Shown in pieces: positions 19,586 to 45,555 of a DNA stretch of 64,000 nt. The notes beneath the pieces are model-generated. The model saw only the letters and a list, made by a program, of their open reading frames with translations, did not search any database and was not told the DNA's origin. Positions within the stretch are counted from its first letter, which is position 1. Every line of letters begins with the position of its first letter. The position numbers and the translations under genes were made by a program. The stretch is from Pseudomonadota bacterium. Its GTDB lineage: Bacteria > Pseudomonadota > Alphaproteobacteria > Rhodobacterales > Rhodobacteraceae. Location of the stretch: contig JAYZBS010000045.1 in assembly GCA_036338635.1 (NCBI GenBank), positions 4,601-68,600 on the forward strand, read 5' to 3'.

Positions 19586-20260
19586 GGCTCTATTGCGCAA
19601 AGCGCATAAGAAATTCATGCACTGAATTCAGCGTGGTAGCTGCAATGCAAGAGCAAACCTGCACCAACGACCTACAAGACCAGGAACTGGCCTACCTATA
19701 GCGAAGCGCTCAAGCGCCGGGGCTCGCTGACGATTTGGTTCGATCCCGAGATGAGGTGGGGGGTCGCGGCGACAGGCAAGCGTGGCCGCCGGCAGAGCTA
19801 CAGCGATGCCACCATCCAAACCTGCCTTTTCATGAAGGTGCTGTTCGGAATGGTGGACATCGGAGCGCCATTGGTCCGAGCGACAATGTCGACCAGGCAG
19901 ACGACAGGATTTGTCGAAAGACTGTTGCGTCAGGTCGGCCTTGACTGGTCGGTGCCCGACTTCAGTACCCTGAGCCGCCGCCAGAAGACTGTCGCCGTCA
20001 ACATCCCGTATCGTGGCTGCAAAGGGCTGTTGCACCTGCTGATAGACAGCACCGGCATCAAGGTCGAGGGCGAAGGCGAGTGGCGCATCGTCACCGGTCC
20101 GAGCGTGCCGCGAACGTCCTACCCGACCTGCTCAGCCAGATCCCGGCCGACGAGGAAATCGGCAGGGGTGAGCCCCGCGAACGCTGATGGCGCCTATGGT
20201 TCGCGCAAGTGCTATGATGCGATCGCTGACTGCGGCGCCCACGCGATCATCCCGCCCCAC
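19586..20260 (+). mobile_element. Degenerate IS5-family (IS903 group) element
   Basis: Left IR GGCTCTATTGCGCAAA (14/16 identity to the intact copy at 44505); YKTRNW..LKRRGSLTIWFDP, DSTG, DGAY; internal deletion and frameshifts. Confidence 0.85.
19850..19893. repeat. Palindromic mini-insert, copy 1 (in-frame, in the IS5 transposase)
   Basis: ATGG + 32 nt (TGGACATCGGAGCGCCATTGGTCCGAGCGACA) + ATGT; net +12 codons versus the intact transposase at 44569. Confidence 0.75.
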
Positions 20261-20722
20261 CGTATTGGCAGCTCGCGCACCCGAAAGACCATGGCCGCGC
20301 CTTGGACCTTTCCGCTCTTGACCGGAACAAAGCGCATCGTGGGTTGCATAGCTGCCTCGCAGATGGCCTCCGCATTGGCGGCATCATCCTTCTGGCGCCT
20401 CACATAGGGCTTCACATAAGCAGGCGGGATCAACCGCACGTGATGGCCCAGCTTGCCGATCTCGCGACTCCAAAAATGGGCACCGCCACAGGCCTCCATC
20501 GCCAATGCAAGCGGGCAGCTAGCCGAAAAATTCCAGCACCTGAGCCCGCCGTATCTTCTTGCGCAGGACGGCCCCCCTGCGCCGTCGGCTCCATGCACTC
20601 GGAAAACATTCTCTGCCAGGTCGAGCCCGACCGTGATAATCTTCGACATGACCGCTCCCCTCTGTGGATCGTTGCAGACCCACCTTGGCATACAGATGCC
20701 GTCGGGGGGCGGTCACATCATC
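20261..20722 (-). mobile_element. IS110-family transposase 5' fragment with upstream end
   Basis: MSKIITVGLDLA (ATG 20649), MEACGGAHFW, IPPAYVKPY, DAANAEAICEA (DEDD N-terminal domain); frameshifted and truncated. Confidence 0.85.
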
Positions 20723-29691: not shown

Positions 29692-30305
29692 ATGAGTGGA
29701 CCATTGGAAGACGTCGACAAGCGGTGGACGGCCAAGCGTAAGTCGGCGCTGGTCATCGAGATCATTCAGGGCAAGACGACGGTGGCGGAAGCCAGCCGCA
29801 GCTATGACCCTTCTCCATCGGAGATCGAAGGCTGGGTTGGTGATGCCCGTCGGGGCATGGAGAACGCACTGCGGACAAACCCGCTCGATGTTCGCCAGGA
29901 ATACGAGAAGCGGTTCCGGGATCTACAGGAAGCCTATGGCGAGGCTATGCTGGAGCTGCGCGCGCGATAAAGTTGGCGGCCCTCATGGTGAGCCATTGAG
30001 CCGCCATCGGTCCGAGGCCAATGGCGAACGGAGGACGACAATTGATCCGGACGCTTCATGAGGGCCTTCTGGCGGATGGCATCAGAGTGTCGCTGGTGAA
30101 GCTCTGCGCCTGGTTCGGCGTCCCGCGGCGGACGGTGTATTACAAACCCGTCAAGGCCGCGCCGGAGGTCGATCCCCGCTTCGCCGAGCCGATCAAGGCC
30201 ATGATCGAGGAAAACCCGTCGTTCGGCTATCGGACGGTGGCATTTCTGCTGGGCTTCAACAAGAACACCGTGCAGCGGATCTTCCAGCTGAAGAACTTGC
30301 AGTGA
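29692..30305 (+). mobile_element. IS3-family remnant: DUF1153 orfA plus truncated orfB
   Basis: RWTAKRKSALVIEIIQGKTTVAEASR; orfB LCAWFGVPRRTVYY..PSFGYRTVA..NKNTVQRI. Confidence 0.85.
29985..30029. repeat. Palindromic mini-insert, copy 2 (IS3 orfA/orfB junction)
   Basis: ATGG + 32 nt (TGAGCCATTGAGCCGCCATCGGTCCGAGGCCA) + ATGG; GCCATTG/CAATGGC stem. Confidence 0.75.
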
Positions 30306-44504: not shown

Positions 44505-45555
44505 GGCTTTGTTGCGCAAAGTCTGAAGGGGGATTCAGCTGTCGACTCCAGCGTGGTAACCGTGCTGCATGAGCAGACCCACCCCGCCGAGCTACAAGAC
44601 CAAGAACTGGCCAGCGTATAACGAAGCCCTCAAGCAGCGCGGCTCTCTGACCATCTGGTTCGACCCGGACATGGCGTGGGTGCCGCCACCGACCGGCATG
44701 CGAGGCCGGCAGCCGCAGTATAGCGATGCCGCGATCCAGACGTGCCTGACGATGAAGGTGCTCTTCGGCATGGCGCTCCGTCAGACGAGCGGCTTCGTCG
44801 AGAGCCTGCTGCGCCTGGCCGGCCTCGATTGGACGGTGCCGGATTTCAGCACGCTGAGCAGGCGCCAGAAGACGTTGGCCGTGTCCATTCCCTACCGGGG
44901 CTCACAGGGGCCGCTGAACCTGCTGATCGACAGCACCGGCATCAAGGCGGAGGGCGAAGGCGAGTGGAATGCCCGCAAGCACGGCGGCGCGAAACGCCGC
45001 CTCTGGCGCAAGATCCACATCGGCGTCGATGAACAGACGCTGGAAATTCGAGCCATCGAGGTTACCGGTAGCAGCGTCGGCGATGCGCCCATGCTGCCTG
45101 AACTGCTCAGCCAGATCCCCGCCGGTGTGGAGCTCGGCACGGTCACCGCGGATGGCGCCTACGACACGCGCAAGTGCCATGACGCCGTCGCCGACCGAGG
45201 CGCCCATGCGATCATTCCGCCGCGCAGGAACGCCAGGCCCTGGAAGCCATCGACAGCGGGCGCGATCGCCCGGAACGAAGCACTGCGCGCATCGAAATAC
45301 CTCGGCCGCGCGATTTGGCGAAAGTGGAGCGGTTACCATCGCCGAAGCCGCGCCGAGACGAAGATGCATTGCGTGAAGCTGCTCGGGCAGAGCCTCATGG
45401 CACGCGACTTCGACCGCCAAGTCGCTGAACTCCAAATCCGCGCCGCCGTGCTCAACGGCTACACCGCGCTCGGCATACCTGTCACAGAACTCGTGGGATA
45501 AGCCCGCCAGGGGAAAGGGGAAGCCCGGCCTTCAAGCTCTTTGCGCAACAAAGCC
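44505..45555 (+). mobile_element. Intact IS5-family (IS903 group) element, 1051 bp
   Basis: Perfect 16-bp TIR GGCTTTGTTGCGCAAA at 44505-44520 and 45540-45555; no flanking direct repeat. Confidence 0.95.
44569..45501 (+). CDS. IS5-family DDE transposase
   Basis: IDSTG, ADGAYD, RSRAETKM; uninterrupted 310 aa. Confidence 0.95.
   Translation: MSRPTPPSYKTKNWPAYNEALKQRGSLTIWFDPDMAWVPPPTGMRGRQPQYSDAAIQTCLTMKVLFGMALRQTSGFVESLLRLAGLDWTVPDFSTLSRRQKTLAVSIPYRGSQGPLNLLIDSTGIKAEGEGEWNARKHGGAKRRLWRKIHIGVDEQTLEIRAIEVTGSSVGDAPMLPELLSQIPAGVELGTVTADGAYDTRKCHDAVADRGAHAIIPPRRNARPWKPSTAGAIARNEALRASKYLGRAIWRKWSGYHRRSRAETKMHCVKLLGQSLMARDFDRQVAELQIRAAVLNGYTALGIPVTELVG

What the first reader, a model, noticed from the sequence alone, without database searches (positions are those of the whole stretch)
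19850..19893. A ~36-bp palindromic mini-element found in two unrelated transposase genes (second copy at 29985-30029)
Both inserts are ATGG + exactly 32 nt (TG...CA) + ATG(T/G) and share the core GAGC(C)GCCAT(T/C)GGTCCGAG and the flank CAATG(T/G)CGA. One sits in an IS5/IS903 transposase, where it adds 12 codons in frame relative to the intact copy at 44569 (MALRQ becomes MVDIGAPLVRATMSTRQ). The other sits at an IS3 orfA/orfB junction. The outer stem covaries (GACAT/ATGTC vs GCCAT/ATGGC), so structure appears to be conserved. A possible collapsed copy, GTGAGCCCCGCGAAC, matching the ends of copy 2 lies at 20168-20182. I infer a tiny non-autonomous element or scar that parasitises IS DNA and preserves reading frame, like the protein-coding palindromes of Rickettsia. 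Exact boundaries and whether ATGG is a true target duplication are uncertain.
Basis: partly seen in the sequence, partly recalled or inferred. Interest (0 to 1): 0.75.

Follow-up and report, generated by a model that had tools for sequence, protein, structure and literature searches.

The report
Mobile 42-base hairpin mini-insertion in transposons
The two small palindromes are copies of a tiny, apparently undescribed mobile DNA hairpin, about 42 bases long, that is spread through the Rhodobacterales and sits almost only inside jumping genes, prophage-like genes and conjugative elements.

Summary
Both inserts exist as described. They belong to a family of 39-43-nt hairpins (mode 42): 5'-N1N2GAG, a 7-10-nt stem of any sequence, the loop GCCAYYGGTYCRAG, the complementary stem, CGAN3N4-3'. 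N1N2 pairs with N3N4.

About 300 copies were collected from some 40 Rhodobacterales genera. Their stems differ almost completely yet stay paired (92%; 10 of 11 pairs show double changes). Pairing stops exactly at the unit's ends.

Identical 42-mers occur at unrelated sites in different genomes. In 42 of 43 filled/empty comparisons there is no target duplication; instead 4-6 target bases are replaced, for a net gain of 35-39 nt. So ATGG is not a duplication, and the reading frame is usually broken. Copy 1 is an in-frame 41-nt variant.

In this genome 10 of 13 copies lie in the 1.6% of DNA that is transposase-like; by eye the other three also lie in transposase genes. Elsewhere the hosts are IS3, IS5, IS21, IS66, IS110, IS256 and IS481 elements, a conjugative-element gene and the GTA tail gene.

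No IS200/RAYT-type transposase co-occurs, so the mobiliser is unknown. In Paracoccus rhizosphaerae every IS903-group copy found is interrupted, yet these ISs kept transposing; this is unexplained.

The parts
19853..19893 (+). Copy 1: a 41-nt hairpin unit (GTGGACATCGG AGC GCCATTGGTCCGAG CGACAATGTCGAC), in frame in a decayed IS5/IS903-group transposase gene. It gains 36 nt net and replaces GCGCT of the empty allele.
   Evidence: covariance-model E = 2e-7. An orthologous filled site is seen in locus L156.
29988..30029 (+). Copy 2: a 42-nt hairpin unit (GTGAG CCATTGAGCC GCCATCGGTCCGAG GCCAATGG CGAAC), between orfA and orfB of a decayed IS3 whose orfA is of the DUF1153 type.
   Evidence: (E = 5e-11). 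The same site is filled in a Thioclava plasmid and empty in P. marcusii, Thioclava FTW29 and Sagittula.
20168..20182 (+). Probable internally deleted copy. GTGAG-CCCCG-CGAAC stands in place of TCACC of the intact paralogue (net +10).
   Evidence: Alignment of the two IS5 copies. The flanks fit the family's purine-before, G-after rule.
19624..20380 (+). Host of copy 1: a decayed IS5 (IS903 group, ISPko1-like) with an 87-nt deletion, frameshifts and truncation.
29692..30305 (+). Host of copy 2: a decayed IS3. Its A6G slippery site is mutated to GATAAAG, and orfB is truncated.
44569..45501 (+). Intact IS5/IS903-group transposase gene. It serves as the empty-site reference for copy 1 (site at about 44773-44777, GCGCT) and for the collapsed copy.
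   Evidence: 310 aa, no stops.
20069..20118 (+). Weak model hit at the edge of the 87-nt deletion. It is not counted as a copy: pairing is poor and part of it aligns to native IS5 sequence.
   Evidence: (E = 0.006).

Best explanation
The two inserts are copies of a non-autonomous mobile DNA element. It is a single hairpin of 39-43 nt (mode 42): N1N2-GAG, a stem of any sequence, the 14-nt loop GCCAYYGGTYCRAG, the complementary stem, and CGA-N3N4.

Shown:
- The whole unit, and nothing beyond it, is copied to new places.
- Insertion removes 4-6 bases of the target and duplicates nothing.
- Sites have a purine just before the unit and G just after it.
- Copies survive almost only in mobile DNA (IS elements, a conjugative-element gene, the GTA tail gene). 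In genes that must stay functional, almost only the in-frame 41-nt form is seen.
- The family is spread over the Rhodobacterales and rides between genomes inside ISs.

Inferred:
- An enzyme supplied in trans recognises the folded DNA, meaning its shape, the loop and the G.A/A.G step. It exchanges a short target segment for the hairpin (cut and replace).
- The stems stay complementary at the DNA level, either because only foldable copies are moved or because one arm is corrected against the other during replication.

The enzyme is not identified.
For: Structure:
- In 47 distinct 42-mers, 92% of cells pair and 10 of 11 pairs have changes on both sides. There are 127 doubly changed cells against 33 in shuffles, with 0 of 500 shuffles reaching that value. 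The 12 own-genome copies give the same picture.
- Pairing is 95-98% at the outermost pairs and at chance level just outside the unit.

Mobility:
- Identical 42-mers occur at non-homologous sites in different genomes. One occupies 4 sites and another 3.
- 43 filled/empty comparisons were made at 80-96% flank identity. One family in a single genome has 4 filled and at least 8 empty copies.
- The empty state matches conserved motifs such as LLIDSTGIK, so the filled state is the derived one.

Target:
- Position -1 is a purine in 97% of copies and +1 is G in 85%.
- 4-6 nt are lost in 42 of 43 comparisons.

Context:
- 136 of 181 copies lie within 300 nt of ORFs in transposase clusters, seven of which were verified with Pfam.
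- In the own genome, 10 of 13 copies lie in 1.6% of the DNA (P = 4e-16).
- In-frame 41-nt copies sit in the GTA_TIM domain of the g15-like tail protein and in a gene next to a DUF3489 gene.
- 41-nt units make up 90% of copies in the viral, GTA and conjugative-element loci but 25% in the mostly IS loci.

DNA level rather than RNA level:
- Stem mismatches are G.T 55 and A.C 55.
- Both orientations occur relative to the host gene.

Range:
- 30 of 36 genomes of the genus have it.
- It is present in about 40 Rhodobacterales genera and in 107 viral contigs.
Against: - No mobilising gene was found. Y1 HUH transposases (PF01797) are missing from this genome and from the high-copy genomes, and no other candidate family was tested.
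- No insertion event was caught between near-identical strains, so present-day activity is inferred from identical units at different sites.
- The restriction to mobile DNA is not explained by the mechanism proposed.
- Orientation is biased 71 sense to 31 antisense. A purely DNA-level parasite does not predict that.
- IS copies carrying frame-breaking units kept transposing in a genome with no intact copy. This hints that the unit may be neutralised during expression.
Confidence: 0.72

Rival explanations
1. The hairpin acts, or is neutralised, at the RNA or translation level. Ribosomes shift frame or hop over it, or it is cut out of the transcript. Interrupted transposase genes would then still yield transposase, and the hairpin might even regulate IS expression.
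For: - In P. rhizosphaerae all of about 40 IS903-group copies are interrupted, and none of 100 protein matches spans residues 1-310.
- One subfamily there has 6 identical copies carrying a 40-nt, frame-shifting unit right after the catalytic Asp. At least 4 of them have their own 9-bp target duplications.
- Orientation is biased 71 sense to 31 antisense.
- Stems change in a compensating way at orthologous sites even when this alters amino acids.
- In that IS the unit is bracketed by matching AAT codons, one in the upstream frame and one in the downstream frame.
Against: - 30% of copies are antisense.
- G.T and A.C mismatches are equally common (55 each), unlike a selected RNA stem.
- Units of 39-43 nt put the downstream part in all three frames.
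- The TGA in GTGAG is in frame in only about 40% of the roughly 20 sense copies I phased by eye, and that phasing was unreliable. It is absent altogether from the CTGAG, TCGAG and GCGAG types.
- No slippery heptamer lies upstream.
- In functional genes almost only in-frame 41-nt units persist. That would not be needed if the unit were skipped.
- No Rfam family matches.
Confidence: 0.15
2. The hairpin is written into mobile DNA by a host system as a way of disabling it. It would be an anti-transposon or anti-phage insertion mechanism, not a selfish element.
For: - The unit is almost exclusively found in ISs, conjugative-element genes and prophage-derived genes.
- Most insertions break the frame.
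- The conserved loop across a whole order suggests a conserved cellular partner.
Against: - No such system is known, and no candidate gene was found.
- Interrupted ISs still multiply.
- Target preference is weak (purine ... G). Nothing in the sequence explains how unrelated IS families would be told apart from host genes.
- The same distribution can arise from selection combined with horizontal spread of ISs.
Confidence: 0.08
3. The units are scars or fragments: the joined ends of a larger excised element, or a piece of one IS end. On this view they are not mobile in their own right.
For: The native IS5 sequence GAGCCATCGAGGT resembles one arm of the unit.
Against: - No half-units flanking longer inserts were found in 4.4 Mb. 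'Solo' halves were chance matches or loop variants.
- The units sit inside coding regions of at least 7 unrelated IS families at many positions.
- The IS5 resemblance is not significant (P about 0.09).
- Identical units have unrelated flanks.
Confidence: 0.03

Closest known systems
REP / BIME / REPIN elements and their RAYT transposases (GTAG- and CGTC-tagged palindromes; Di Nocera et al. 2013, PMC3733652)
   Same: Both are 20-40-nt GC-rich palindromic repeats that are dispersed and non-coding in origin. Some REPs lie inside ORFs and are read as peptide.
   Different: - There is no GTAG or CGTC tag.
- The loop is conserved and the stem is free, whereas a REP family shares the whole sequence.
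- Copies are almost never extragenic and sit in mobile DNA.
- No Y1 (RAYT/IS200) gene is present in this genome or in the high-copy genomes.
- The target is deleted, not left intact.
Rickettsia palindromic elements (RPE)
   Same: Both are palindromic inserts found in frame inside protein genes of an alphaproteobacterium (from the literature as quoted, and from my own knowledge).
   Different: RPEs are longer (about 100-150 bp, from my own knowledge) and are found in housekeeping genes. Here most copies break the frame, and the hosts are mobile elements.
Integron attC sites and the ends of IS200/IS605 elements
   Same: In both, the recognised feature is a folded single strand, so structure is kept while sequence drifts (my own knowledge). 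This is the closest working analogy for 'free stem, fixed loop'.
   Different: There are no R/L boxes. No integron integrase or TnpA was found. The unit is both the site and the whole cargo. Insertion replaces 4-6 target bases.
Mitochondrial G+C clusters of yeasts and the translational-bypass elements ('byps') derived from them; T4 gene 60
   Same: These are tiny mobile GC-rich hairpins inside genes. Byps are skipped by ribosomes between matching codons (my own knowledge; Wu and Hao 2015, PMC4478555, was named in an earlier scan note and I did not read it).
   Different: - The setting here is bacterial and order-wide.
- Matching take-off and landing codons are seen in some copies only.
- No evidence of bypass could be obtained.
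- As far as I recall, G+C clusters duplicate a target dinucleotide; here target bases are lost.
Bacterial MITEs (Correia and others)
   Same: Both are non-autonomous, dispersed and moved in trans.
   Different: MITEs are 70-300 bp with terminal inverted repeats matching a parent IS, and they make target duplications. This unit is 42 nt, has no parent IS and makes no duplication.

Membership tests
REP/REPIN (RAYT-associated) | Conserved GTAG (or CGTC) tetranucleotide at one end of the palindrome | tested here: not met
   The ends are N1N2GAG and CGAN3N4. The combination is GT/AC in 95 of 178 copies and AT/AT in 42. Neither tag is present.
REP/REPIN (RAYT-associated) | A Y1 HUH transposase (RAYT, PF01797) in the same genome | tested here: not met
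   There are 0 hits in G000, and hits in only 5 of 36 genomes of the genus. There are none in the high-copy genomes G002, G006, G011 and G022.
REP/REPIN (RAYT-associated) | Mostly extragenic, often in inverted pairs | tested here: not met
   136 of 181 copies lie in or next to transposase ORFs. All 13 own-genome copies are in transposase genes: 10 by tblastn and 3 by my reading of the translations. Only a few are intergenic (L034, L037).
MITE | Target-site duplication and terminal inverted repeats of a parent IS | tested here: not met
   There is no duplication in 42 of 43 filled/empty comparisons; 4-6 nt are lost instead. No larger element has these ends.
Rickettsia palindromic elements | In-frame insertion kept as peptide in functional genes | tested here: inconclusive
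   This holds for the 41-nt copies in GTA g15, in the gene next to DUF3489, and for copy 1. It does not hold for most copies, whose net gains were 38 (15 cases), 37 (11), 36 (9) and 39 (5).
Programmed translational bypass (T4 gene 60, byps) | Matching take-off and landing codons, a stop after take-off, and a hairpin at the take-off site | tested here: inconclusive
   AAT...AAT brackets the unit in the multi-copy IS5 of P. rhizosphaerae and in L156 and L077. Other copies have no match. TGA is in frame in only about 40% of the roughly 20 sense copies phased by eye, and that phasing was unreliable.
Known structured RNA (Rfam 15) | Match to a curated covariance model | tested here: not met
   No hit reached the gathering score in the window. 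Only chance-level hits appeared in nine loci and in L083.
Integron attC | R''/L''-L'/R' boxes with extrahelical bases, and an IntI integrase | not tested
   By eye, the ends (GTGAG...CGAAC) do not read RYYYAAC...GTTRRRY in attC order. No search for IntI was run.

The most novel reading that the evidence does not exclude
The hairpin is moved by an unknown cut-and-replace enzyme that recognises folded DNA. Transposase genes interrupted by it remain productive because the unit is skipped or removed during expression. A whole IS family could then carry it and still transpose, as all IS903-group copies of Paracoccus rhizosphaerae appear to do.
Probability: 0.18. Interest if true: 0.85.

Novelty: new variant of a known kind. 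Interest (0 to 1): 0.62.

Why it matters
Tiny palindromic insertion elements are known, but this family combines several features I could not find described together:
- a fixed loop with a freely evolving, always complementary stem;
- replacement of a few target bases instead of duplication;
- no RAYT-type enzyme in the carrier genomes;
- near-exclusive residence in mobile DNA across a whole bacterial order.

It matters for four reasons.
- It is a frequent and so far unannotated cause of 'frameshifted' or 'split' transposase genes in Rhodobacterales genomes.
- It adds 12-residue loops to the GTA tail protein.
- It gives a clean natural data set for studying how DNA palindromes stay palindromic.
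- If interrupted ISs really remain autonomous, it points to an unknown way of expressing genes across a hairpin insert, or to an unknown DNA-exchanging enzyme.

Tried and rejected
- **tRNA or tmRNA fragment.** The consensus subfamily looks like a T arm (GGTTCGAGYCC). The variable stems pair with the 5' arm, not with the loop, and Rfam gives no tRNA hit at these sites.
- **Hammerhead, k-turn or SECIS readings of GTGAG...CGAAC.** The core does not fit a hammerhead. There is no 3-nt bulge. TGA is absent from many subtypes.
- **Origin from the native IS5 segment GAGCCATCGAGGT.** The similarity is not significant.
- **Stems templated by the target.** No flank similarity was seen in the filled/empty pairs.
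- **Footprint of a larger element.** No split halves were found.
- **RAYT/IS200 as mobiliser.** It does not co-occur.
- **dN/dS across the hairpin in the IS5 lineage.** I abandoned this. The units in the two P. rhizosphaerae subfamilies are 39/40 identical while their ISs are 73% identical, so a shared ancestral insertion cannot be assumed.
- **Automatic codon-phase assignment from the longest ORFs.** It proved unreliable in this high-GC DNA, because known sense copies were called antisense. I use those counts only loosely.
- **Literature.** Four full-text searches found no description of this family.

Full report
**1. The observation**

Reading the window confirms both inserts. Copy 1 lies in a decayed IS5/IS903-group gene. 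Aligned with the intact paralogue at 44569-45501, it adds exactly 36 nt. Copy 2 lies between orfA and orfB of a decayed IS3. The shared 14-mer GCCATYGGTCCGAG occurs five times in the 3.5-Mb genome, where I estimate about 0.13 by chance. Relaxed searches found more relatives.

**2. Anatomy**

Twelve copies from this genome align almost without gaps (A1). With about 300 copies from other genomes, the unit resolves as follows:
- 5'-N1N2-G-A-G;
- a stem of 7-10 nt;
- the loop (C)GCCAYYGGTYCRAG;
- the complementary stem;
- C-G-A-N3N4-3'.

The total is 39-43 nt, most often 42.

N1N2 pairs with N3N4: GT/AC in 95 copies, AT/AT in 42, then TC/GG, GC/GC and CT/AG. GA faces AG as a fixed non-Watson-Crick step.

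On 47 distinct 42-mers (A3), 92% of cells pair and 10 of 11 pairs have changes on both sides. There are 127 doubly changed cells against 33 in shuffles, with 0 of 500 shuffles as high. Slid partners give 27-40% pairing. Pairing is 95-98% at the outermost pairs and falls to chance immediately outside. The hairpin therefore defines the unit's ends.

In window coordinates the units are 19853-19893 (a 41-nt variant) and 29988-30029 (42 nt).

**3. It is copied as a unit**

Of 181 copies, 170 have different sequences. The few identical ones sit at unrelated sites in different genomes:
- ATGAGCCATGTCGCGCCATTGGTCCGAGCGACAATGGCGAAT occurs in L120, L123, L135 and L136/L140.
- GTGAGCCATTGATGCGCCATTGGTTCGAGCACAATGGCGAAC occurs in L050/L141, L086 and L162.

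In both cases identity ends exactly at N1 and N4.

**4. Filled and empty sites**

The copy 2 site is filled in this genome and in a Thioclava plasmid. It is empty in P. marcusii, Thioclava FTW29 and Sagittula plasmids.

Across the collected loci, 42 filled/empty pairs at 80-95% flank identity were found. In 41 of them the empty allele has 4-6 extra bases (5 nt in 23 cases, 4 nt in 16) where the unit sits. Nothing is duplicated.
- The best pair, at 95% identity, reads GGAGA-CAATC-GCAAAA against GGAGA-[42 nt]-GCAAAA.
- Within one genome (P. rhizosphaerae) an IS481-like family has 4 filled and at least 8 empty copies, and again 5 nt (CCATG) are replaced.

Net gain is therefore 35-39 nt: 38 in 15 cases, 37 in 11, 36 in 9 and 39 in 5. 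This shows no bias toward multiples of three.

The empty state matches motifs conserved in distant homologues (LLIDSTGIK, DNGxEFTS). The filled state is therefore derived.

Sites show a purine at -1 (97%) and at -3 (88%), and G at +1 (85%).

Copy 1 replaces GCGCT, and copy 2 replaces GAGCG or, on another placement of the gap, AGCG.

I accept it as a probable internally deleted unit. The weak hit at 20069-20118 I do not accept.

**5. Where it lives**

All 13 copies in this genome lie in transposase genes: IS3 orfA or orfB, IS5/IS903, an IS5/IS427-like element, IS256 and rve-type genes. DNA similar to the verified transposase clusters, plus 300 nt either side, makes up 1.6% of the assembly and holds 10 of the 13 copies (binomial P = 4e-16). 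The other three are in transposase genes by eye, near contig ends.

Over all loci, 136 of 181 copies are within 300 nt of ORFs in transposase clusters. Seven clusters were verified with Pfam (rve/rve_3, HTH_Tnp_1, DDE_Tnp_1, IstA, IstB, IS66, IS110) and two were assigned by eye.

The viral-contig scan shows the other habitat. Conserved 41-nt copies are read in frame as 12 extra residues in two places:
- inside the GTA_TIM domain of the RcGTA g15-like tail protein, with one or two copies per gene;
- in a small gene (phrog_14596) next to a DUF3489 gene, which I take to be a conjugative-element module.

A phage terminase also carries one (L025).

41-nt units make up 90% of copies in these loci but 25% in the mostly IS loci, where 42 nt is the mode. 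This is what selection for intact frames predicts if insertion costs 5 target bases (41 - 5 = 36).

**6. Range**

30 of 36 sampled genomes of the genus have the element, with up to 36 hits each. The genus is Paracoccus, judging from plasmid hits.

These covered about 40 genera of Paracoccaceae and Roseobacteraceae. There were a few Hyphomicrobiales and a few MAGs labelled as other phyla, which may be misbinned.

**7. DNA level or RNA level**

Three results argue for the DNA level:
- Both orientations relative to the host gene occur (71 sense, 31 antisense).
- Among stem mismatches, G.T and A.C are equally frequent (55 each). A selected RNA stem would favour G.U.
- No Rfam family matches.

Stems nevertheless change in a compensating way at orthologous sites. 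This is seen in the window against Thioclava at copy 2's site. It is also seen in many variants at the site next to DUF3489, even where amino acids change.

I read this as maintenance of a DNA palindrome. Either only foldable copies are propagated, or one arm is corrected against the other during replication. I cannot tell these apart.

**8. Mobiliser**

No mobiliser was found. Y1 HUH transposases are absent from this genome and from the high-copy genomes. No larger element carries the two halves.

The cut-and-replace mechanism is my inference from three observations: the missing 4-6 nt, the purine and G flanks, and the conserved junctions (R|N1 ... N4|G in the donor; R|Y...C|G in many targets).

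**9. An unexplained point**

In P. rhizosphaerae every IS903-group copy found is interrupted. There were 100 protein matches and none spans residues 1-310. The breaks fall at residue ~123, just after the catalytic Asp, or at ~216.

One subfamily has six identical 1088-bp copies, all with a 40-nt unit that shifts the frame by -1. At least four have their own 9-bp target duplications. They therefore transposed after acquiring the unit.

There are two possible explanations:
- A helper copy has since been lost or escaped detection.
- The interrupted gene is still expressed.

In this IS the unit is bracketed by AAT codons in the upstream and downstream frames, as bypass elements are. This is not general.

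**10. Comparison and verdict**

The nearest described kinds are REPs, including intragenic ones, and RPEs, together with mitochondrial G+C clusters. The family fails the defining REP tests (tag, RAYT, extragenic location) and the MITE tests (duplication, parent IS).

Four full-text searches found no description. An earlier first-stage note of this scan (e1-3196984) reports a similar mini-element breaking a transposase fragment in another genome, which agrees with this report. Checks on other mini-hairpin findings (e1-3678634) warn that the general kind is in print and that direction must be shown. Direction is shown here by the conserved empty state.

I rate this a new variant of a known kind, with one open puzzle that could raise its importance.

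Noticed in passing
L083:87-135 and L171 just after the GIKFLG codons (about 1950-2010): A second, unrelated GC-rich palindromic insert (for example GGGGCTTACGCGGCCCCATCAGGGGCCACGGTCCCC) also interrupts these IS5 genes. More than one family of mini-hairpins may therefore colonise the same ISs.
   Followed up: no
L040 (Thioclava sp. GXIMD4216 plasmid p3) 630-700; window 29960-30030: In the Thioclava IS3 the A6G slippery site is intact. The +37-nt unit puts orfA and orfB in the same frame, separated only by a stop inside the unit (TAG there, TGA in the window copy).
   Followed up: partly
window 20212-20691 (-): An IS110-type transposase N-terminal fragment (MSKIITVGLDLAENVFRVHG...) abuts the decayed IS5 that carries copy 1. 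The region is a nest of broken ISs.
   Followed up: no
window 20084-20090: The decayed IS5 lacks 87 nt relative to the intact paralogue. The edge of the deletion gives a weak model hit (E = 0.006) that is partly native sequence.
   Followed up: partly
L016:1480-1560 (G011): The copy in the IstB Walker A motif has a partial tandem duplication of its 5' arm (GAGCCATCGAG|GAGCCATCGAGGA). The units themselves can therefore suffer slippage.
   Followed up: no
L034:1500-1560 and L037:1500-1560: Two intergenic copies have GTCAG...CTGAC ends, where the G.A/A.G step is replaced by Watson-Crick pairs. They share the stem GCCGGYGGTT/AACCGCTGGC with the copy in an IS3 orfA of this genome (C175).
   Followed up: partly
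L051, L070, L102, L147 (output): Loop variants GCCAYCGGTCCGAAG / GGTTCGAAT with good stems exist. My patterns missed them, so copy numbers given here are lower bounds.
   Followed up: no
L074, L082, L096, L114, L128, L156: Copies occur on contigs of MAGs labelled Gammaproteobacteria, Dehalococcoidia, Pirellulaceae, Bacillaceae and Thiohalocapsa. Most look like Rhodobacterales IS DNA, so misbinning or horizontal transfer are both possible.
   Followed up: no
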